DNA of 64,000 bases. Origin: Enterobacteria phage phiC600P9. Location: sequence record MZ681930.1. The stretch is one strand, 5' to 3'. The translations under genes were made by a program, and so were the position numbers. Below are positions 22,318-62,865 of this stretch, one piece after another. The notes beneath the pieces are model-generated. The model searched no databases, was not told the DNA's origin, and saw only the letters and a program-made list of their open reading frames with translations. The first letter of the stretch is position 1. Each line of letters starts with the position of its first letter.

Positions 22318-22350
22318 ATGGGGACCTTTCGGTCCCCATATTTTTATTTG
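22318..22350. terminator. Bidirectional terminator after gene 54
   Basis: Hairpin ggggacc-tttc-ggtcccc followed by atatttttattt. Confidence 0.7.
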
Positions 22351-22634
22351 CGGAATGAAATGAAAGCAGAAACTGAAGCAACTAAACTGTCTTCAATATA
22401 AACTTCAATTTTTACCGGAGCTTCTGACTCAAATTTACCTGTTACTACACCCTGAAAAATACTTTCAGTCTGTTCTGGCTTTGAAAAATTTTCAGAAGGA
22501 AAAATTCCGAACTTTTTATCTGTTCCAAAAATTTTAATAAATTCATCGTAAACCGCTTCGTTAAAAGCATTATCAGCAGGAATAACGCCTTCAACTACAA
22601 GTTCTTGACCTAAAAAGCGTAAAGAAGATTTCAT
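22344..22634 (-). CDS. Hypothetical early protein (T4 alt.-3 position)
   Basis: 96-aa ORF immediately downstream of a sigma70-type early promoter and a GAGGA SD. Confidence 0.6.
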   Translation of the reverse strand: MKSSLRFLGQELVVEGVIPADNAFNEAVYDEFIKIFGTDKKFGIFPSENFSKPEQTESIFQGVVTGKFESEAPVKIEVYIEDSLVASVSAFISFRK

Positions 22635-22640
22635 TTTGTG

Positions 22641-22700
22641 TTCCTCATGTTATGTCAGTAAGACTATTATAACACAACATAAGGAACTTGTAAACTACAT
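22641..22700 (-). promoter_or_regulatory. Early promoter cassette (GTTTACA, 17 nt spacer, TGtTATAATA) overlapping an imperfect inverted repeat
   Basis: Minus strand reads GTTTACAagttccttatgttgTGtTATAATAgtcttactgacataacatGAGGAacacaaaATG; the inverted repeat cctcatgtt/aacataagg flanks the -10. About 85 percent identical to the element at 38071-38130. Confidence 0.65.
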
Positions 22701-24752
22701 TTTGAACTTTTTAGACATTCCGTTAATGTTAACCAAAGAAGCTAAGATTTGAGAAACTTCGTTTTCCTCTTCTTTTGATTCTTCTACAAGGAATTGATTA
22801 AATCCAGCCATTGGACGAACTTCACCAGTTTCCATTAAATGGTCTCCATCATATACTGATTCTTCTAATTGTTCAGAAGGAGGAACGATTGCACCTTCGA
22901 TTAGATACTTGTTATAAGCAGTTTCTTTCATAAAGTACGTACTTACTTTATTAATCTTCAGTAAAATTCCACGCGGTAGAATAACTTCAGCTTCTGATGG
23001 AAATCCTGTTAAATGACCTGGAACGATAACTTTGATTCGCTCAGCTCCTTTAATTACCATACCCACTCTAGTTTCAGCATTTTCATTAGCGTATGTAGAA
23101 TGACTACCCATATGCATCAAATCTTCTGCATCAACGGAACCTTCTCCTTCACCAGAAAATACTGCGCCGGAATCATCTAAAGCCATATAGTTTTTACCAT
23201 GCTCGCCGAAGATATTTGGTTTAAGCGATGTAGATACGAAGTTCTTGAAATAGAACATTTTGTTTTCAATGTTATGACGCAAAGTTTTAAAGGTAACTTC
23301 TTGTCCACGGTAAAGTGTAGTTCCTGGAGGAAGAACTGAACCTTTAGCAAATGCAGAATCCAACGTCTCGATGTGTTTAATAGCTCGTTCCATATATTCT
23401 TCGCGGGTAGAATCAGGTTTACCCAAAAGGAACGAGTTCATTTCAACATATGAATCTGCACAATAATCTTCAATTACATCAGATTCAGCTTGAGTTAATC
23501 CTTTTGGAGTTACTTCGGTGCTTGCGTATTCATATGCCTGGGCAGCAGATTCATTAATCAATTTATAAATGCCATTCATTACAAATTGAATAATAGCTGT
23601 CTTTTCATCTGGCGTAGCTTTAGAACCTTTAACCAAATCATTGATAATTTTCTTAATAACATCAAAGCTATTAGAAATATTAATATCAGCAAGATCGCTT
23701 AAAATTTTATCAGTTTTATAATCAAAGAATTCTTTATTCTTTAAATATTCTTGAGAACCTTGATATGTTATATCGCTCTGCAACTTGATGGATGGATCAC
23801 GTAAACGTGCATGGGCTAATGCAATATGATTTCGGAAGTTTTCTAGTTCATAATCGCTAGATTTAAAACGAGAAGCACTTCTCATACCACCGATAGCTCC
23901 TTTGCTGAAGTTTGAACCAATCTGAATAACGCCAGAGTTCATTGGTCCTTCTGCTTTATATACCGGAACTTTAGATTCAAACTCTTGATATTTCTTGGCA
24001 GCGAAGCTATCACCCTGAAGTGAAGCATCAACAGTAGAATATTGAGCTTGTGCTGCTAATCGACGACTAATTTTAGTTTTCTGAATAACAGCTTGGTCCG
24101 TGCGCTTATCATTTTCTAAAGCAATAGAAGCAGCAACAGCGACAGCTTTAGGAACAGCATTACCTGTTTTAACGTCTACATAAACATCACCAACCTTTGA
24201 TTCAACTTTTGTGAATAACTCAGTTGAAATAGGAGGTACACCTGGAATGTCTTCTAAATTGGCATTTTTACGGTAAACCATAATATATGCATACTTTTTA
24301 TCATAGTCCCAGATTTCCTTTAAAAGAACATATCGACCTGCTCCTTTAGTACGTACTAAACGGTCAGCAATAACTTGCATTTGACGAGCAGCGCCATTTG
24401 TTTTACTCTTTAGTACACGGAATAAGCACGCGTCAATTTTATACTGTTTCATTGTTTGAAGAGCAGTATCAAAAACAGCATTAATGACGCCAATTGGATT
24501 TCCACCCAAGTTTCTAAGCTTAACCAGTGATAATTTCTCATTAACACCTATCATTACGATATGCATCATTTTATCGCCCGGCTTAACGTTTTTATTCGTA
24601 TCACCGCCAGAGGTGTATGTACAAAATCTAAATCCAGGAAGCACGCTTTCTTCGCCGGCTTGAATAGCAAAAATTTGTGGTATTTTATGCTTAGGATTTA
24701 AGTTAACAACCGGCGCCGAAGCGCCGTCAAATAATTCTGTAATAAGTTCCAT
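22695..24752 (-). CDS. Alt-like ADP-ribosyltransferase paralogue
   Basis: 685-aa ORF whose first ~230 aa are about 75 percent identical to the adjacent Alt; the C-terminal domain carries R/S-T-S/E-x-E ART motifs (LYRGQ, FVSTSL, SEAEVILPRG). Confidence 0.75.
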   Translation of the reverse strand: MELITELFDGASAPVVNLNPKHKIPQIFAIQAGEESVLPGFRFCTYTSGGDTNKNVKPGDKMMHIVMIGVNEKLSLVKLRNLGGNPIGVINAVFDTALQTMKQYKIDACLFRVLKSKTNGAARQMQVIADRLVRTKGAGRYVLLKEIWDYDKKYAYIMVYRKNANLEDIPGVPPISTELFTKVESKVGDVYVDVKTGNAVPKAVAVAASIALENDKRTDQAVIQKTKISRRLAAQAQYSTVDASLQGDSFAAKKYQEFESKVPVYKAEGPMNSGVIQIGSNFSKGAIGGMRSASRFKSSDYELENFRNHIALAHARLRDPSIKLQSDITYQGSQEYLKNKEFFDYKTDKILSDLADINISNSFDVIKKIINDLVKGSKATPDEKTAIIQFVMNGIYKLINESAAQAYEYASTEVTPKGLTQAESDVIEDYCADSYVEMNSFLLGKPDSTREEYMERAIKHIETLDSAFAKGSVLPPGTTLYRGQEVTFKTLRHNIENKMFYFKNFVSTSLKPNIFGEHGKNYMALDDSGAVFSGEGEGSVDAEDLMHMGSHSTYANENAETRVGMVIKGAERIKVIVPGHLTGFPSEAEVILPRGILLKINKVSTYFMKETAYNKYLIEGAIVPPSEQLEESVYDGDHLMETGEVRPMAGFNQFLVEESKEEENEVSQILASLVNINGMSKKFKM

Positions 24753-24755
24753 GAT

Positions 24756-26807
24756 TTATCCTTGAACGAACTTGTAAGGCATGTTTGCAATATCTATGCA
24801 AGACGCAATAATTCCAAGAGATGATTCTACTTTCTGTTTAACATTTGATGAAACAAATGATGCAAAGTCAACTCTATCTTCTATATCACCTGTCATTGTA
24901 ACCAATTCACCAGTTTCCATTAAATGGTCTCCGTCATAGATTACCGATTCGGTGAGCTCTTCCGTGGTCATAACTTCAGCTTGAATAAGCTTGTTGTTAG
25001 TTTTAACTGTTCCATCATTGTAAGATGCATCGGTTATTTTATTAACTTTGACCATTAATCCACGTGGCAAAATGACTTCCATTTCATTTGAAGGCGCTAA
25101 ACTTCCACCGGGTAAAACAACATTGACCTTATCAGCCCCAGTAATAACCCATCCAATTCCAACTAAATTATCGCTAGAATTTACTAGTCCTTCATCAGTT
25201 TTATCAATAGAAACACTTAGACGCTTTTCGTCTGGTAAAACACCTATAGATGAATCAGTCATCCAAGTACCAAAAATATTTGGATATAATGATGTTGACA
25301 CAAAGTTTCTAAAATAAAAAACTCGATTTTTTACCAATGCTTCATATATTGAAGGTAACATTCGCTGTGAACGATATAAAGTAATACCTTTTGGCAATCG
25401 ATCGCCATTTTTAAAGGCTGAATCTAAATTATCGATGGCTTGTTCTATTTCGGGTGCTGTCAAAATACTTGTACGCTCATCTGGATTATATAATCCCAAA
25501 AGAGCATTATTCATGTCTACATATCCTGAACCCACATATTCACGAATTCCGCGTTTTTGAGCCGGTGTGTATTTAGATGAATCTTTATTTTCGACTATAG
25601 AATGCAATGACCATCCAACGGTAAGAGCATATCCACGTAATTCTCTTCGAATAATCTTTGTTTTTATTGCATTCCAAGAATTTTGCACTAACTCATTTGC
25701 AGCATCTTGATTTAAATGCGAATGCTTGTTAATATTTCTTTCTAACCAAGCACTTTTATATTTTTCTAAAGTATCATCGACTATAGAAGCAATAGTTTCT
25801 AAAGTTTTTATTGAAGTAATAGATTCTTTTCGTAATCTTTCTAAAGCTTTATTTTTTATTTCTGCATTAACATCAGATTCTTTATCTTCAGGAATTATAG
25901 AAGCTTCTCTGAATGCCATCCCAGCTGTAACACTATTAAGAGCATTCTCTAGTGCAAATCCTGAAGTAGAAATTACCGTTAATTCATTAGAATCAGAAAT
26001 TAAAGGCGCGTCCGCTGGTTTATTTAATTCTGCCGCTGAAGCCTCAAATTTTTGAAACATCGGTGTTTCAAATCTAGAAGATTCCAATGACTGACTTTGT
26101 GCAATTGCTCTACGGGAAATTTTAACTTTAACGATTACAGCTTGGTCAGAACGTTTATCGTTTTCTTGCGCAATAGATGCTGCAATTGCCTCATTTTTAG
26201 TTACTTGAGCTCCAGTATCTTTATTGATATAAACATCACCGACCTTCGATTCAACTTTAGTAAAGAGCTCGGTACTAATTTCCGGAACTCCTGGAATGTC
26301 TTCTAGTGATACATTTTTGCGATGTATAAGAATATATGCATACTTTTTATCATAATCCCAGAGTTCCTTAAGAAGGACGTATCTGCCACCTGAACGACTA
26401 CGGATAAGTCTATCAGCAATAACTTGAATTTGTCGAGCTTGACCAGCGGTTTTAGACTTAAGAATACGAAGCATGCAGGCATCAATTTTATACTGGCGCA
26501 TTGTTTGCATTGCAACAGTAAAAACTGAATTGATATAATTAATTGGGCTTGGACCAAGACCTTTCAATTTAGCAATTGAACCTTTAGCAGTTAATGTAAA
26601 AGGAACAATGTGCATCATTTTATCGCCCATCTTTAAATCACGATTAGTATCACCTCCAGATGTATAGGTACATAAACGAAAGCCTGGTTGTTCAATTGCG
26701 TCATCAACATGAACTGAAAAAATTTGTGGTATTTTCTTCTTTGGATTTAAGTTTGTAATCGGAAGAGTAGTATCTTCGTCAAATAATTCTGTAATTAGTT
26801 CCATCAT
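24756..26807 (-). CDS. alt: Alt ADP-ribosyltransferase (virion-packaged, modifies host RNA polymerase)
   Basis: 683-aa ORF (682 from the second Met) beginning MELITELFDEDTTLPITNL, with ART motifs LYRSQ, FVSTSL, NEMEVILPRG; matches T4 Alt as recalled. Confidence 0.88.
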   Translation of the reverse strand: MMELITELFDEDTTLPITNLNPKKKIPQIFSVHVDDAIEQPGFRLCTYTSGGDTNRDLKMGDKMMHIVPFTLTAKGSIAKLKGLGPSPINYINSVFTVAMQTMRQYKIDACMLRILKSKTAGQARQIQVIADRLIRSRSGGRYVLLKELWDYDKKYAYILIHRKNVSLEDIPGVPEISTELFTKVESKVGDVYINKDTGAQVTKNEAIAASIAQENDKRSDQAVIVKVKISRRAIAQSQSLESSRFETPMFQKFEASAAELNKPADAPLISDSNELTVISTSGFALENALNSVTAGMAFREASIIPEDKESDVNAEIKNKALERLRKESITSIKTLETIASIVDDTLEKYKSAWLERNINKHSHLNQDAANELVQNSWNAIKTKIIRRELRGYALTVGWSLHSIVENKDSSKYTPAQKRGIREYVGSGYVDMNNALLGLYNPDERTSILTAPEIEQAIDNLDSAFKNGDRLPKGITLYRSQRMLPSIYEALVKNRVFYFRNFVSTSLYPNIFGTWMTDSSIGVLPDEKRLSVSIDKTDEGLVNSSDNLVGIGWVITGADKVNVVLPGGSLAPSNEMEVILPRGLMVKVNKITDASYNDGTVKTNNKLIQAEVMTTEELTESVIYDGDHLMETGELVTMTGDIEDRVDFASFVSSNVKQKVESSLGIIASCIDIANMPYKFVQG

Positions 26808-26827: not shown

Positions 26828-26835
26828 TATTTATA
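26828..26835 (-). promoter_or_regulatory. Late promoter TATAAATA upstream of alt
   Basis: Minus-strand TATAAATA about 20 nt upstream of the alt ATG, consistent with late expression of a packaged protein. Confidence 0.55.
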
Positions 26836-31243: not shown

Positions 31244-31576
31244 TTATTTTACTACTTTCCAGTGCTGCATGTCAAGTTTACCAACTTTTTTCATCTTCTC
31301 AATTAAGCGTTCGGCACGTTGGCGAGCTGTAACATAATACCATTCACCCAACTCATTTTGTTCAATTTTTCCAACGATTACCGTATTCAGTTCATAAATC
31401 CAACCAGTAAAGAAATTATGAACTTGGATTGTAAAGGTGAAATCTGTTCCCATACCTTCTGTTGTTTCTACTTCAATAATATCACCTTCAACTGCCATTA
31501 AGAACCACATAGTTTCATCATATTTACCATTGAAGCATTTAGTTTTAACTGTGGCGTTCAGATTAATCGTTTTCAT
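31244..31576 (-). CDS. Hypothetical early protein (30.x cluster)
   Basis: 110-aa ORF. Confidence 0.55.
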   Translation of the reverse strand: MKTINLNATVKTKCFNGKYDETMWFLMAVEGDIIEVETTEGMGTDFTFTIQVHNFFTGWIYELNTVIVGKIEQNELGEWYYVTARQRAERLIEKMKKVGKLDMQHWKVVK

Positions 31577-31686
31577 TTTATTCTCCTTTGTTTGTGTAAG
31601 ATAATACTATCACAAAGGAACCATACTGTAAACAACTTTGTGCAATCTTTGGAAAATAAAAAAGGACTCCCGAAGGAGTCCTTAAC

Positions 31687-34744: not shown

Positions 34745-34806
34745 TTTGTTTTCCTCATTTGTTTTGGTAGAGCTATAATATCACAACTCTACCATAAAGT
34801 AAACCA

Positions 34807-37223: not shown

Positions 37224-37573
37224 TTAGAAAGTTCCTGGATGTCTTCTGCGAACTTGTTGAAGGAGTTGTTGATTTGTTTTTCAACCAATCCTGGCTTATG
37301 AGCCACCACATCCGCCTTCTTTGCATCTTTGCGCAGTTTTTCATTTTCACGCTCAATAGCAGCAATTGCCTCACGATTTTTATTATTCATCGCATCAATA
37401 TAATTATACTGAATTCGCAAATTATCTAATGCTAAAGCGTTTTCATTGGCCGTTTTTGTAATTTCAGTAACTGATGTTTCTAATCTTTCTACCTTATTTT
37501 TTAAAATAATAGATGTTCCGCCAAATGCTATTACAAGTAATAGCAATCCAGCTGTAAAATTACTTACATGCAT
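37220..37573 (-). CDS. Inner-membrane spanin component (i-spanin, pseT.3-like)
   Basis: 117-aa ORF with an N-terminal transmembrane helix (LLLLVIAFGGTSIIL) followed by a coiled-coil-like segment. Confidence 0.65.
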   Translation of the reverse strand: MHVSNFTAGLLLLVIAFGGTSIILKNKVERLETSVTEITKTANENALALDNLRIQYNYIDAMNNKNREAIAAIERENEKLRKDAKKADVVAHKPGLVEKQINNSFNKFAEDIQELSK

Positions 37574-38067
37574 AAAGTTTTAATAACCTCTACAATATCG
37601 TCTTGAGAAAGACCGTTAATTAAAATATGATGTTCAGCTGGAGATTTAGAAATTTTAAAGCATGCCTCAACATCTTCTGCCATATCTGATGCACTACGAT
37701 TTGGATTACTAATTCCAAGACGATGCTTTTCTGTCAAAGGATTAACGATGATGTAGCATTTACAGTTATTGATATGAACATTAGGTTGAGTCTGATTAAT
37801 GAACACTTCACAATCATATTTCGCAAGCTGATTTTCTAAAAAGACTTTCATCTCCTCGACTGCATCAGGAAGCATATCACGGGCTTGCTCAAGACGACGA
37901 TTTCGATATTCTTTAATGGTCGTTTTCCGCTTGACTTGCTTAGCTAAATCTTTCTTAAGATCAGTGATATATCCAACTCGACGATTTCCTTTGAATACAG
38001 AAATCCCATCTGTAGTATCACCGTATGCTTCAACGACCATTTCAGTAGTAATAAGCTGTAAATCCAT
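37564..38067 (-). CDS. alc: Alc, inhibitor of host transcription on cytosine-containing DNA
   Basis: 167 aa from the second Met, same length and position (between rnlA and pseT) as T4 Alc. Confidence 0.75.
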   Translation of the reverse strand: MDLQLITTEMVVEAYGDTTDGISVFKGNRRVGYITDLKKDLAKQVKRKTTIKEYRNRRLEQARDMLPDAVEEMKVFLENQLAKYDCEVFINQTQPNVHINNCKCYIIVNPLTEKHRLGISNPNRSASDMAEDVEACFKISKSPAEHHILINGLSQDDIVEVIKTLCM

Positions 38068-38070
38068 CAT

Positions 38071-38130
38071 AAAGTCCTCGTGTTATGTCAGTAAGACTAC
38101 TGTAACACAACACGAGGGACTTGTAAACAG
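38071..38130 (-). promoter_or_regulatory. Early promoter cassette (GTTTACA, spacer, TGtTACAGTA) within an inverted repeat
   Basis: Minus strand reads GTTTACAagtccctcgtgttgTGtTACAGTAgtcttactgacataacacGAGGActttATG; perfect inverted repeat cctcgtgtt/aacacgagg; second copy of the element at 22641-22700. Confidence 0.65.
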
Positions 38131-38131
38131 C

Positions 38132-39719
<1,588 letters not shown>

Positions 39720-39746
39720 AATAAAATGGGCCTTGCGGCCCACTCC

Positions 39747-40925
39747 TTAAAAGTATTTTTTAAAACTCATCATAACTTTATCATCAACATCATTATCAAT
39801 TTGTGCGACAAGATAAGAACTGATTTCAACTTCCTGAGGAGCTGCTTGAACTAAATCGGAGTTCAGATATTCACGAATCCAAGGATACGGATGCTTGGTC
39901 GGAGCATCAGTGATTGGGCATGGCAAACCACACTGTTTCATACGAGACACAGTCAAGTAATCAACAAAAGCACACATACTCTGCGTATTGATACCTGGAC
40001 ATGTACCGTCTTTAAAGAGGTGTGCAGCCCATTCCTTCTCTTGTCTATTTACTTCCATAAAAATGTTAACTGCTTCTTGTTCACATTCTTTAGCAATTTG
40101 AACCCACTCATCACCATCAGTACCAGATTGAAGTTGACGGATAATGTACTGAGTACCCTTGAGGTGGAGTTGTTCGTCACGAGCAATGAACTTCATAATC
40201 TTTGCATTGCCTTCCATAATTTCCATATTTTTATGGAAGTTAAAGGTACATGCAAATGATACGTAAAAACGAATAGCTTCCAAGGCGTTAATTACATGAA
40301 GGCAAAGATAAAGAGATTTCATTAGCTCACGCTTCCAATATGTCTCATGCTCAATAGCATCTTCAATAACGTCTTCGTCTGCATTAATTTCTTTTTGGTA
40401 TTCGATATCAGCTTTAGCGTTTTCCCAATAACGAGTTTTAACCAGAACATCATCGTAATATTTACCTATTGATTCAGCTCGTTTCATGATTGCTTCGTCT
40501 AATACAATCTCATCAAATACTTTGGATGGATCAGTATAAAGATTTCGCATAATATGAGTATACGAACGAGAGTGAATAGTTTCACTGAATGTCCATGTTG
40601 CAACCCATGTATCTAATGAAGGGTCAGAAATCAGTGCCATAAGTACCGCAGACGGGGCCCTGCCTTGGATAGAATCTAATAATGATTGATACTTAAGATT
40701 GTTTGTAAAGATGTCCTGTTGGAACTGAGGAAGCTTATTGAACTGCGCAGAGTCCAACATCAAGTTTACCTCTTCTGGGCGCCAAAAAAATGATAATTGC
40801 TTTTCGGTCAAATCTTCAAAAACTTTATGGCGTTGAATATCATAACGCGCAATACCAAGACCAGAACCAAAGAACATCGGTTCATTCAAAACATCGACTT
40901 GTTGTGTGTTAAAAACTGTACTCAT
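39747..40925 (-). CDS. nrdB: Ribonucleotide reductase small subunit NrdB (continuous ORF)
   Basis: 392-aa uninterrupted ORF at the nrdB position; no interruption of the kind the T4 group I intron would produce. Confidence 0.92.
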   Translation of the reverse strand: MSTVFNTQQVDVLNEPMFFGSGLGIARYDIQRHKVFEDLTEKQLSFFWRPEEVNLMLDSAQFNKLPQFQQDIFTNNLKYQSLLDSIQGRAPSAVLMALISDPSLDTWVATWTFSETIHSRSYTHIMRNLYTDPSKVFDEIVLDEAIMKRAESIGKYYDDVLVKTRYWENAKADIEYQKEINADEDVIEDAIEHETYWKRELMKSLYLCLHVINALEAIRFYVSFACTFNFHKNMEIMEGNAKIMKFIARDEQLHLKGTQYIIRQLQSGTDGDEWVQIAKECEQEAVNIFMEVNRQEKEWAAHLFKDGTCPGINTQSMCAFVDYLTVSRMKQCGLPCPITDAPTKHPYPWIREYLNSDLVQAAPQEVEISSYLVAQIDNDVDDKVMMSFKKYF

Positions 40926-46636: not shown

Positions 46637-47587
46637 GTTATTTTCCTCTTTAATCATCATCAGCAGTATTGCCGATAGTTGTATAGTACCACAGTATGCT
46701 TTGAGGTCCGTGTCATCAGCACTAGATGAACTGCCAGAGCTTGAGCTCATAAAATCATCTTCAGTTTTTGTTTTGAAGTCATCAACATTGAATGCATCCA
46801 AATCATCAGCAACTTTATCGGCTTTCTTAGCAGCAGTTGCTGCGGCACCACCCATAGCAGCAGTTCCCATAACTTGACTGAACTTAGTGCTCAGTTCTTC
46901 AAACGATTTGAATTTATCTTTAGAAGTCATTTCAGAAAGGTCAACCATCTGTTCAAACAGTTCTTTCTGGAAAGATTCATCATCAATGTTTGGAATCGCA
47001 GATTGATTCAGGAATTTAGATTCGTCGTAGTTACTAAAACCAGAAACTTGTTTAACTTTCAGTACAAAGTTAGCACCTTCCCACGGACAAGTTACATCAA
47101 CCGGAGTTTCACCCATTTCAACATCAACTGCAATCATTGCATTGATTTTATCCCAGATTTTCTTACCAAAACGGTATTTAAATACTTTACCTTCATTTTC
47201 TGGAGCAGCTGGGTCTTTTACTACAAGAATGTTAGCCCAATAAGAAGTTTTGCGTTTAACAAGACTGTACTCTTTATTGTCAGTGTTGTACAAATCATTT
47301 TTACTGATATACTGACATACTGGACAAGAATCGTAATCACCGTGGGTAGATGAACAGTTTTCAATATACCATTTACCATTTTTCTTGAAACCGTGATTTA
47401 CAAGAATTGCGAATGGTGCTTGTTCATCATTTTTAGACGGAAGAAAACGAATTACTGCTTGACCGTTACCCGCATTGTCGAGTTTCAGTTTCCACTCGCC
47501 TTTATCTTCAGAAGAAAAACCACCTTTATTTCCAGCCAGTTTAGCCATTTGTGCAGCGAGTTCAGCAGTAGATTTACGTTTAAACAT
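46409..47587 (-). CDS. 32: Single-stranded DNA-binding protein gp32, as encoded here without its own stop codon (392-aa read-through ORF)
   Basis: The first 294 aa match T4 gp32 as recalled (zinc site, OB fold, serine-rich tail [15 protein letters not shown]), but the expected ending DDLLNDL-stop is replaced by ...[22 protein letters not shown] and the frame continues into the next ORF. Confidence 0.8.
46674..46703. repeat. 30-nt motif gatagttgtatagtaccacagtatgctttg, copy A, at the gene 32 3' junction
   Basis: 29 of 30 nt identical to 62836-62865; partial matches at 39281-39293 and 32586-32609. Confidence 0.8.
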
Positions 47588-49848: not shown

Positions 49849-49910
49849 ATGAACCTCGTTCAATTAGTGAGATTTCTATTATATACCATCCAAATCTTAA
49901 AGTAAACAAG

Positions 49911-62802: not shown

Positions 62803-62835
62803 TTTCTAATCTCCGTAATTCTGTATCAGTAGTTG

Positions 62836-62865
62836 ATAGTTGTATAGTACCACAGAATGCTTTGG
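62836..62865. repeat. 30-nt motif gatagttgtatagtaccacagaatgctttg, copy B, upstream of motA and adjacent to a hairpin
   Basis: 29 of 30 nt identical to 46674-46703; immediately followed by hairpin ggagagc-cgag-gctctcc at 62865-62882. Confidence 0.8.

What the first reader, a model, noticed from the sequence alone, without database searches (positions are those of the whole stretch)
38071..38130. Duplicated early promoter / inverted-repeat cassette (copy 2, upstream of alc)
This is the second copy of the element at 22641-22700, with a perfect 9-bp inverted repeat (cctcgtgtt / aacacgagg) spanning the -10 and transcription start region, then GAGGA and the alc start. It lies between rnlA and alc.
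Basis: seen in the sequence. Interest (0 to 1): 0.4.

Follow-up and report, generated by a model that had tools for sequence, protein, structure and literature searches.

The report
Early promoter inside a ribosome-site-masking hairpin
Upstream of the T4-type phage gene alc (and, as a near-identical second copy, upstream of alt.-3) an early promoter sits inside a long RNA hairpin, so only transcripts started at that promoter should have a free ribosome-binding site; it is a conserved example of a design already known in T4-like phages, not a new kind of element.

Summary
The window is a Tequatrovirus (100% identical to phage phiC600P9). All genes discussed here lie on the minus strand. Between rnlA and alc lies a 54-nt cassette: GTTTACA (-35), a 17-nt spacer, TACAGT (-10) and GAGGA (ribosome-binding site). 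A second copy, 48/54 identical, lies upstream of alt.-3. About 500 T4-genus genomes carry both copies.

The 9-bp inverted repeat is the core of a roughly 22-bp hairpin (-27 to -30 kcal/mol, z about -5.8). Its 5' strand is the promoter spacer. Its 3' strand is the alc leader, including the ribosome-binding site. RNA started at the predicted start site lacks the 5' strand and is unstructured.

The same layout precedes alc in 10 of the 12 other Tevenvirinae/Bragavirus genera sampled, with different, co-varying stem sequences.

Best reading: read-through transcripts have a masked ribosome site, and only own-promoter (immediate-early) transcripts are freely translated. That is the gene e/soc/49/I-TevI logic, here with an early promoter. 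The cassette also fits the published PeSL (promoter-early stem-loop) description. It is not an intrinsic terminator (no U tract). The start site and the translational effect are predicted, not measured.

The parts
38132..38134 (-). rnlA stop codon (TAA), 4 nt upstream of the -35 hexamer
38122..38127 (-). -35 hexamer TTTACA (with G38128 it forms the T4 early-promoter motif GTTTAC)
   Evidence: invariant across genera
38105..38121 (-). 17-nt promoter spacer AGTCCCTCGTGTTGTGT.
38099..38104 (-). -10 hexamer TACAGT (TATAGT in T4), preceded by TG; it lies in the apical part of the hairpin
38092..38092 (-). Predicted transcription start (an A, 7 nt after the -10). RNA from here lacks the whole 5' strand of the hairpin. 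This is predicted, not mapped.
   Evidence: inferred from promoter geometry; folding
38072..38122 (-). Full RNA hairpin predicted in read-through transcripts: 22 pairs, one bulged C, a 2-nt internal loop and a 4-nt apical loop
38075..38079 (-). Shine-Dalgarno GAGGA of alc, inside the 3' strand of the hairpin (38072-38093)
   Evidence: 10 of 10 SD-window bases paired
37564..38070 (-). alc coding sequence (168 aa; inhibitor of host transcription)
22642..22695 (-). Copy 1 of the cassette, upstream of alt.-3: -35 at 22689-22694, -10 TATAAT at 22666-22671, hairpin 22640-22687, SD GAGGA 22642-22646, ATG at 22634. The upstream stop codon TAG (22695-22697) abuts the -35.
22344..22634 (-). alt.-3 homologue (96 aa), the last gene of a late transcription unit. 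That unit starts at the late-promoter motif TATAAATA (26828-26835) and ends at a terminator-like hairpin (22318-22339).
31574..31632 (-). A third, more divergent element with the same layout, upstream of the 30.8 homologue. Arm TTCCTTTGT in the spacer pairs with ACAAAGGAG, which contains the SD.
   Evidence: found independently by a covariance model built only from other genera; gene named by ORF size and order relative to T4

Best explanation
[quoted passage not shown] The 17-nt promoter spacer is the complement of the gene's 5' leader, including the Shine-Dalgarno sequence. Transcripts that enter from upstream contain both strands. For alc these come through rnlA. For alt.-3 they come through the late alt unit. 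Such transcripts should fold into a hairpin of about 22 bp that buries the Shine-Dalgarno sequence, so the gene is translated poorly or not at all. Transcripts started at the embedded promoter begin in the apical part of the hairpin, lack the 5' strand, are unstructured and are translated freely. The net effect would be to tie synthesis of Alc and Alt.-3 to the activity of their own immediate-early promoters, whatever later read-through transcription does. Shown here: the sequence anatomy, the predicted structures, the duplication, and conservation with covariation. Inferred: the exact start site, that read-through transcripts exist, and that the hairpin lowers translation.
For: (1) Structure. 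Read-through RNA folds at -30.4 kcal/mol (alc, z -5.8) and -24.1 kcal/mol (alt.-3, z about -5). RNA from the predicted start site folds at 0 to -0.2 kcal/mol. The same contrast holds for 23 elements from many genera: 0 to -2.3 against -12 to -27 kcal/mol. (2) The Shine-Dalgarno sequence is inside the 3' strand, with 10 of 10 and 9 of 10 bases of the SD window paired. These are among the most stable leaders of 75 gene starts in the window. (3) Conservation with covariation. The rnlA-alc spacer in Gelderland-, Karam-, Moon-, Jiaoda-, Roskilde-, Dhaka-, Kanagawa-, Winkler- and Bragavirus, and in several metagenomic lineages, has the same -35 / arm 1 / -10 / arm 2 = SD layout with different stem sequences. 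A promoter spacer pairs with its own leader at a mean of -17.4 kcal/mol, against -9.6 kcal/mol with leaders from other genera (permutation p <= 1e-5). In a gapless alignment of 8 sequences from 5 genera, 91.9% of cells are paired, 4 pairs show compensatory double changes, and the covariation score is 0.204 against 0.097 in shuffles (0 of 500 reach it) and at most 0.097 when partners are slid. (4) Within Tequatrovirus, 96.7% of cells are paired. Almost all stem variation runs through G-C / G-U / A-U, for example pair 15-48 with GU 8, AU 3, GC 1. That fits an RNA made from the coding strand. (5) Promoter. It matches the consensus with an extended -10, and the hexamers are nearly invariant across genera. 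(6) Context. No terminator lies between rnlA and alc. alt.-3 lies at the end of a unit driven by a late-promoter motif with no terminator in between, so read-through RNA is expected. (7) Precedent. T4 genes e, soc, 49 and I-TevI use the same trick with late promoters (PMC3014915, section 29). (8) The same layout precedes regB in Kanagawavirus-like phages and the 30.8 homologue in this window.
Against: No start site, read-through transcript or translational effect was measured here. A published T4 dRNA-seq study exists, but its start-site table was not in the held supplement. Other early promoters in the window (upstream of the cd.2, 30.7 and probably frd.1 homologues) also have an inverted repeat flanking the -10 that does not reach the ribosome-binding site. 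So the repeat may have a more general role, with masking a by-product. Mosigvirus has lost the 5' arm (no structure, z +0.7). In Tegunavirus the repeat stops 5 nt before the Shine-Dalgarno sequence. Across genera the hairpin is no more stable on the sense strand than on the antisense strand, so strand-specific RNA selection is supported only within Tequatrovirus. Ribosomes terminating at the nearby upstream stop codon could partly open the stem, making the block leaky.
Confidence: 0.55

Rival explanations
1. PeSL-type attenuator or RNA-end element. The stem-loop acts on transcription or RNA fate rather than on translation. It would terminate, pause or attenuate polymerases arriving from upstream, which would also protect the strong early promoter from occlusion. 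Alternatively it would serve as a processing or stability hairpin (a 3'-end protector, or an RNase III site given about 22 bp of duplex) separating the upstream mRNA from the alc mRNA.
For: Arbiol et al. 2010 describe early-promoter/stem-loop cassettes in RB49 and phi1 whose stem-loops can overlap the -10 box. One such stem-loop cut downstream lacZ expression as strongly as a strong terminator (PMC2839356, section 14). Several other early promoters in this window carry -10-flanking repeats that do not include the ribosome-binding site, which argues for a role independent of masking. The duplex length in T4 (about 22 bp) is in the range of RNase III substrates (the range itself is from general knowledge).
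Against: No U tract follows the hairpin (CUUUAUGAUG after alc's, ACACAAAAUG after alt.-3's), and the terminator scan finds nothing there. In most genera the covarying stem specifically includes the GGAG/GAGG ribosome-binding site. Stems in other genera are 13-17 bp, which is short for RNase III.
Confidence: 0.2
2. Translational coupling device. On read-through mRNA the masked ribosome-binding site is opened only when a ribosome finishing the upstream gene reaches the stop codon, which lies 0-10 nt before the -35 and hence just before the 5' arm. Alc would then be made in proportion to RnlA, rather than being switched off.
For: The upstream stop codon abuts or nearly abuts the -35 in every genus (TAG-TTTACA in five genera; 4 nt away in this window). 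The first bases of the 5' arm are the ones that pair with the Shine-Dalgarno sequence. Unmasking by a terminating ribosome is a classic coupling mechanism (general knowledge).
Against: A ribosome at the stop codon would reach only 0-3 of about 20 pairs in the T4-type element, leaving a stable stem. An embedded strong promoter is unnecessary for simple coupling. Tight spacing may only reflect genome compaction.
Confidence: 0.15
3. DNA-level element. The repeat would form a cruciform or single-strand hairpin, or bind a dimeric protein, to modulate promoter activity. Alternatively the repeated cassettes serve mainly as homology patches for recombination and module shuffling (the PeSL evolutionary model), with the pairing incidental.
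For: The two copies are direct repeats of 54 nt. In T4 they differ at 1 of 54 positions but here at 6 of 54, which is compatible with occasional gene conversion. Copy 1 borders a segment that differs between T4 (alt.-1/alt.-2 fragments) and this phage (an intact second alt gene). Across genera, sense and antisense folds are equally stable.
Against: In most Tequatrovirus sequences the repeat has 2-4 G-U positions and a bulge. These are mismatches in DNA but pairs in sense RNA. Recombination alone does not explain why spacer and leader co-vary in each genus. Recombination between these two copies would delete 15 kb containing DNA ligase, gene 31, cd and pseT.
Confidence: 0.07

Closest known systems
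PeSL (promoter-early stem-loop) cassettes of T4-type phages (Arbiol et al. 2010, PMC2839356; Comeau et al. 2014, PMC4122927)
   Same: The order is the same: upstream stop codon, sigma-70-like early promoter (TTTACW-N17-TAYWAT in the PST/T4 pair), a stable stem-loop that may overlap the -10 box, then the Shine-Dalgarno sequence and start codon. The cassette is repeated within a genome. PST, one of the phages analysed in the 2014 paper, has both copies of this element.
   Different: Published PeSL stem-loops are described as terminators or attenuators. For PST/T4 they are drawn just upstream of the promoter. Here the stem spans the whole spacer and the leader, includes the ribosome-binding site and has no U tract. 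The two copies lie next to conserved genes (alc, alt.-3), not among ORFans. I could not see the paper's figure, so I cannot say whether these two sites are on its list.
Ribosome-binding-site sequestration with the promoter inside the hairpin: T4 genes e, soc, 49, I-TevI (Uzan & Miller 2010 review, PMC3014915)
   Same: Long upstream-initiated transcripts form a helix over the Shine-Dalgarno sequence and/or AUG. A promoter placed within or after the 5' strand yields transcripts that lack it and are translated.
   Different: In the known cases the internal promoter is late, so the device delays expression. Here it is an early sigma-70 promoter, so the device would confine expression to the immediate-early period. 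alc is not mentioned in that review. Nothing has been measured for alc or alt.-3.
Intrinsic (Rho-independent) terminators
   Same: A stable hairpin in an intergenic spacer at the end of the upstream gene.
   Different: No U tract follows it, and it is not called by the terminator scan. The 3' strand carries the next gene's ribosome-binding site.

Membership tests
PeSL (promoter-early stem-loop) cassette | Sigma-70-like early promoter with -35 and -10 boxes about 17 nt apart | tested here: met
   TTTACA / 17 nt / TACAGT with TG before the -10. Copy 1 is TTTACA / 17 nt / TATAAT, 11 of 12 matches. This fits the PST/T4 PeSL consensus TTTACW-N17-TAYWAT.
PeSL (promoter-early stem-loop) cassette | Stable stem-loop within or next to the promoter (five positional subclasses, including overlap with the -10 box) | tested here: met
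   The hairpin at 38072-38122 encloses the -10; -27 to -30 kcal/mol, z -5.8. Subclass definitions are in PMC2839356, section 14.
PeSL (promoter-early stem-loop) cassette | Bounded by the upstream gene's stop codon on one side and the Shine-Dalgarno sequence plus start codon of the downstream gene on the other | tested here: met
   TAA lies 4 nt before the -35 (alc copy) and TAG abuts it (alt.-3 copy). GAGGA and ATG lie at the 3' end.
PeSL (promoter-early stem-loop) cassette | Repeated motif within the genome | tested here: met
   Two copies are 89% identical over 54 nt, and about 499 Tequatrovirus records have two places each. A third, divergent element lies at 31574-31632.
PeSL (promoter-early stem-loop) cassette | Stem-loop acts as a transcription terminator or attenuator | not testable with these tools
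   This needs reporter or 3'-end data. From sequence alone there is no U tract and no terminator call.
PeSL (promoter-early stem-loop) cassette | Located at indel or replacement boundaries in hyperplastic regions | tested here: inconclusive
   Copy 1 borders the alt-paralogue segment, which is intact here but reduced to the alt.-1/alt.-2 fragments in T4. Copy 2 sits in the rnlA-alc junction, which is syntenic in all 13 genera sampled.
Promoter-in-hairpin RBS masking (T4 e / soc / 49 / I-TevI type) | Shine-Dalgarno sequence and/or AUG paired in a helix in upstream-initiated transcripts | tested here: met
   This is a prediction only. All 10 bases of the SD window are paired in the MFE fold, and the pairing is kept by covariation.
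Promoter-in-hairpin RBS masking (T4 e / soc / 49 / I-TevI type) | An internal promoter yields transcripts lacking the 5' strand of the helix | tested here: inconclusive
   Promoter geometry puts +1 at 38092, downstream of the whole 5' strand, and such RNA is unstructured. The 5' end has not been mapped (one search found no data).
Promoter-in-hairpin RBS masking (T4 e / soc / 49 / I-TevI type) | The internal promoter is a late (gp55, TATAAATA) promoter, so expression is delayed | tested here: not met
   There is no TATAAATA at either cassette. The promoter is of the early sigma-70 type. The mechanism is alike but the temporal logic is inverted.
Promoter-in-hairpin RBS masking (T4 e / soc / 49 / I-TevI type) | Demonstrated reduction of 30S binding or translation on the long transcript | not testable with these tools
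   This needs toeprinting or reporter fusions.
Intrinsic terminator | G+C-rich hairpin immediately followed by a U tract | tested here: not met
   The tails are CUUUAUGA and ACACAAAA.
Any Rfam RNA family | Match at or above the gathering score | tested here: not met
   The only hit is a chance miRNA-precursor match of 18 bits against a threshold of 135.

The most novel reading that the evidence does not exclude
In T4-like phages the 17-nt spacers of certain immediate-early promoters (alc, alt.-3, 30.8; regB in other genera) have evolved as anti-leader sequences. This would be a conserved, genus-by-genus co-evolving device that makes translation depend on where the transcript started. Immediate-early proteins would then be shut off at the translational level when their promoters are silenced, even though middle and late read-through RNA keeps covering the genes. 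That is the mirror image of the gene e/soc late-gene device. It would contribute to the incompletely understood decline of early protein synthesis.
Probability: 0.4. Interest if true: 0.55.

Novelty: new member of a known kind. Interest (0 to 1): 0.4.

Why it matters
If the hairpin works as predicted, synthesis of Alc (the factor that stops transcription of cytosine-containing host DNA) and of a few other immediate-early proteins is set by which promoter made the mRNA, not only by mRNA abundance. RNA-seq levels for these genes would then overestimate protein synthesis after the early period. It would also add a translational layer to early-gene shut-off in T4. The anatomy is small and well defined, and natural compensatory variants exist in about ten genera, so the system is easy to test. 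The compact promoter-plus-mask module might also be reusable in phage engineering. The principle itself is already established in T4, so this is an extension rather than a surprise.

Tried and rejected
Intrinsic terminator: rejected, because there is no U tract and no terminator call.

Known RNA family: no Rfam match.

MAFFT alignment of all genera (A2): it placed the 3' arms out of register, so I did not use it for pair counts. I used a gapless five-genus subset (A4) and an alignment-free test of cognate against non-cognate duplexes.

Covariance-model alignment A5: it mixes in reverse-strand hits to the same hairpins, so I used it only for detection.

Sense-versus-antisense stability as a test of RNA-level selection: informative only within Tequatrovirus and not significant across genera (Wilcoxon p = 0.73).

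Shuffle test of covariation within Tequatrovirus: not significant, because variation is too low (302 of 500 shuffles).

Whether the Karamvirus alt.-3 promoter is a copy of the Karamvirus alc cassette: it is not. It is a plain early promoter with a small spacer hairpin. The alc/alt.-3 pairing of copies is therefore specific to the T4 genus, although the Karamvirus alc cassette also has 2-3 similar places per genome, whose positions I did not determine.

Gaprivervirus loci L010, L011 and L014: I first read the wrong upstream region. A 77-aa alc N-terminal fragment ORF precedes the true alc there.

Literature: Miller et al. 2003 (PMC150520) is not held. The T4 dRNA-seq preprint's start-site table is not in the held supplement. 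No supplement is held for the 2014 PeSL paper. Four full-text searches found no paper describing the alc or alt.-3 hairpin. The library lacks most of the older T4 literature, so prior description cannot be excluded.

Full report
WHAT THE WINDOW IS. The region is 100% identical to Enterobacteria phage phiC600P9 (MT630408.1, genus Tequatrovirus) and 96-98% identical to about 500 T4-like genomes. All genes discussed here are on the minus strand. The finding lies in the 61-nt spacer between RNA ligase (rnlA, stop codon at 38132-38134) and alc (ATG at 38070). The other copy lies between a second, full-length alt paralogue and the alt.-3 homologue (ATG at 22634). T4 itself has both copies at the same two places.

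THE OBSERVATION. It is correct. The 9-bp perfect inverted repeat is at 38076-38084 / 38109-38117, and it extends to 13-nt arms at 92% complementarity. The duplicated unit is 54 nt (22642-22695 and 38075-38128), 48/54 identical. There are only two copies in 64 kb, with none expected by chance. The repeated unit runs exactly from the G of GTTTAC to the A of GAGGA, and the flanks are unrelated. An 81-nt query finds two places in essentially every one of 499 Tequatrovirus records.

ANATOMY ON THE CODING STRAND. The order is as follows.
- The rnlA stop codon.
- -35 hexamer TTTACA (38127-38122).
- 17-nt spacer AGTCCCTCGTGTTGTGT.
- -10 hexamer TACAGT (38104-38099), preceded by TG.
- A 22-nt leader containing AACACGAGGA.
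- The ATG of alc.

The simple promoter scan picks out this site, and it rates copy 1 as the best match in its region at 11 of 12. Across genera the two hexamers are nearly invariant while the sequence between and after them varies. That is what a functional promoter should look like. The start site (A38092) is inferred from the usual 7-nt distance and has not been mapped.

THE HAIRPIN IS MUCH LARGER THAN 9 BP. As RNA, the junction folds into a hairpin of about 22 pairs (38072-38122). The whole spacer pairs with the whole leader, and the -10 region pairs with the first transcribed bases at the tip. The MFE is -30.4 kcal/mol (z -5.8; 0 of 200 shuffles as stable). For copy 1 it is -24.1 kcal/mol (z about -5). 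For the two T4 copies it is -23 to -27 kcal/mol. RNA starting at the predicted +1 has essentially no structure, at 0 to -0.2 kcal/mol. Of 75 candidate gene starts in the window, the alc leader is the most stable and the alt.-3 leader is joint second to fourth. In both, the Shine-Dalgarno window is fully or almost fully paired to a partner 44-47 nt upstream.

CONSERVATION AND COVARIATION. I collected the rnlA-alc junction from 13 other genera and from metagenomes. rnlA-alc synteny and a -35-to-ATG distance of 60-63 nt are conserved. In the following groups the bases right after TTTACA are complementary to the Shine-Dalgarno region, with a different stem sequence each time:
- Gelderlandvirus: ATCTCCGTTT / AAACGGAGAT
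- Karamvirus and Moonvirus: TCTCCATTTGGTT / AACCAAATGGAGA
- Jiaodavirus: ATCCTCATCAG / CTGATGAGGAT
- Roskildevirus: TCTCCTCAG / CTGAGGAGA
- Dhakavirus: TCTCCTCAT / ATGAGGAGA
- Kanagawavirus: ATCCCATTTTGTT / AACAAAATGGGGAT
- Winklervirus: TCCTCATTTCGTT / AACGAAATGAGGA
- Bragavirus: AACCTCTCATTTT / AAAATGAGAGGTT
- Several unnamed metagenomic lineages, also with their own stem sequences.

Folding z-scores for these range from -2.6 to -6.6.

Three measurements support selection on the pairing.
- A spacer pairs with its own leader at a mean of -17.4 kcal/mol, against -9.6 kcal/mol with the leaders of other genera (permutation p <= 1e-5).
- On a gapless alignment of eight sequences from five genera, 91.9% of cells are paired and four pairs carry compensatory double changes. 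The covariation score is 0.204, against 0.097 in shuffles (0 of 500 reach it) and at most 0.097 with slid partners.
- A covariance model built only from those five genera finds three sites in this window and no others: 22636-22694, 38071-38127 and 31587-31632.

Within Tequatrovirus, 96.7% of cells pair. Variation runs through wobble intermediates (pair 15-48: GU 8, AU 3, GC 1; pair 14-49: CG 9, UG 3). The three substitutions that distinguish this window's alt.-3 arm (TTCCTTATG) from the common CCCTCGTG all keep pairing, and they remove the bulge.

Exceptions: Mosigvirus has lost the 5' arm, and in Tegunavirus the repeat ends 5 nt before the Shine-Dalgarno sequence. Acinetobacter and Aeromonas phages are different again.

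MOST LIKELY MECHANISM. The 3' strand is the ribosome-binding site and the 5' strand lies upstream of the start site. The simplest reading is therefore transcript-origin-dependent translation. RNA arriving from upstream is masked, and RNA made from the embedded early promoter is open.

Read-through is expected at both copies. No terminator separates rnlA from alc. alt.-3 is the last gene of a unit that begins at a late-promoter motif upstream of alt (TATAAATA, 26828-26835) and ends at a terminator just after alt.-3. For alt.-3 this would mean an early gene kept silent on late mRNA.

This is the logic documented for T4 genes e, soc, 49 and I-TevI, except that there the inner promoter is late (PMC3014915). 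alc is not mentioned in that review. I put this explanation at about 0.55.

RIVALS.
- PeSL-type role (about 0.2). The element fits the published description of PeSL cassettes: upstream stop codon, early promoter, a stem-loop that may overlap the -10, then the Shine-Dalgarno sequence and start codon (PMC2839356, section 14; PMC4122927). The stem-loops of those cassettes are proposed to attenuate upstream transcription, and the cassettes are proposed to mediate recombinational shuffling. An attenuator or processing role is favoured by one further observation. The early promoters upstream of the cd.2 homologue (the annotated T4 Pe133295), the 30.7 homologue and probably the frd.1 homologue in this window also have -10-flanking repeats that do not include the ribosome-binding site. 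Against it, there is no U tract, and the covarying stem specifically covers the Shine-Dalgarno sequence.
- Translational coupling (about 0.15). Ribosomes terminating at the adjacent upstream stop codon could open the base of the stem. In T4 they would reach very few of the roughly 20 pairs.
- DNA-level role (about 0.07). This is disfavoured by the G-U positions in T4-type copies. It is not excluded, because sense and antisense folds are equally stable across genera.

DUPLICATION. The alc and alt.-3 copies differ at 1 of 54 positions in T4 but at 6 of 54 here. In Karamvirus the alt.-3 promoter is not a copy of that genus's alc cassette. The pairing of copies therefore arose in, or is maintained only in, the T4 genus, possibly with gene conversion. 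Elsewhere the same architecture appears at regB (ATCTCCTTTTAGT / ACTAAAAGGAGAT).

NOVELTY AND LIMITS. The kind of element is known, both as a PeSL cassette and as promoter-in-hairpin ribosome-site masking. What I did not find described is that alc, alt.-3 and 30.8 (and regB elsewhere) use it with an early promoter, and that spacer and leader co-vary across about ten genera. The paper library lacks most of the classic T4 literature, and the PeSL figure listing PST sites could not be read. Prior description therefore cannot be excluded. Nothing about start sites, read-through or translation was measured here.

Noticed in passing
window 31574-31632 (- strand): A third early-promoter cassette with the same layout lies upstream of the 30.8 homologue. 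Spacer arm TTCCTTTGT pairs with ACAAAGGAG, which contains the Shine-Dalgarno sequence (-12 kcal/mol). It was detected independently by a covariance model built from other genera (E = 0.023).
   Followed up: partly
window -35 boxes at 34803, 31240, 45983 (- strand); weaker at 49906: Other early-promoter-like sites (upstream of the cd.2, 30.7 and probably frd.1 homologues; a weaker one upstream of rnh) carry a strong inverted repeat flanking the -10 box. One arm lies in the spacer and the other in the first transcribed bases, and neither reaches the ribosome-binding site. The Tegunavirus TG1 alc promoter (L030) carries this type (ATGGTAGGACT / AGTCCTACCAT). It resembles the cd.2 cassette, which suggests cassette swapping between genes.
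   Followed up: partly
window 22695-24752 and 24756-26804 (- strand): This phage has two full-length alt-type ADP-ribosyltransferase genes in tandem (about 72% identical DNA blocks; repeat families D1 and D2). T4 retains only the fragments alt.-1 and alt.-2 of the second copy.
   Followed up: no
window 39283-39308 (- strand), just upstream of rnlA: The sequence ATGCTTCC, 13 nt, TACTAT fits the MotA-dependent middle-promoter consensus. It starts right after the denA stop codon. No rnlA middle promoter appears in the list of about 60 mapped T4 middle promoters in PMC2988021.
   Followed up: no
window about 39720-39755 (- strand), upstream of the annotated denA start: A G+C-rich hairpin (GUGGGCC-GCAA-GGCCCAU, followed by UUUAUU) sits between an AAGGAG and the AUG annotated in phiC600P9. 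It could be a terminator after nrdB, or a 'split' ribosome site of the gene 25/38 type. T4 annotates denA 24 nt longer.
   Followed up: no
L010, L011, L014 (Gaprivervirus-like contigs), locus positions about 1420-1740: A 77-aa ORF resembling the N-terminal third of Alc precedes the full-length alc. The promoter cassette sits upstream of the fragment. Its -35 lies in the loop of a terminator-like hairpin (GGGG-TGTACAAG-CCCC followed by a T-rich run). A second hairpin pairs the Shine-Dalgarno sequence with bases between the -10 and the predicted start.
   Followed up: partly
L068 and L069, positions 248-307: In Kanagawavirus-like Enterobacter phages the regB (endoribonuclease) gene is preceded by the same promoter-in-hairpin layout (13-bp perfect stem including GGAG, -23 kcal/mol). 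Karamvirus genomes have 2-3 places similar to their alc cassette, whose positions were not determined.
   Followed up: partly
L027, L051-L053, L056 (Mosigvirus): The Mosigvirus rnlA-alc spacer keeps the T4-like 3' arm (AACACGAGGAG). It has replaced the 5' arm with a small hairpin inside the spacer (CACC-AAGGAA-GGTG), so the ribosome-site mask is lost in this genus.
   Followed up: no
window 46674-46703 and 62835-62864: A 30-nt direct repeat, 97% identical. On the minus strand it reads AAAGCAT(A/T)CTGTGGTACTATACAACTATC, with a TGTGGTACTAT extended -10 like the one upstream of rnlA. One copy lies inside the 3' end of gene 32. The other lies after a terminator and upstream of a gene start at about 62803. 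They may be promoters.
   Followed up: no
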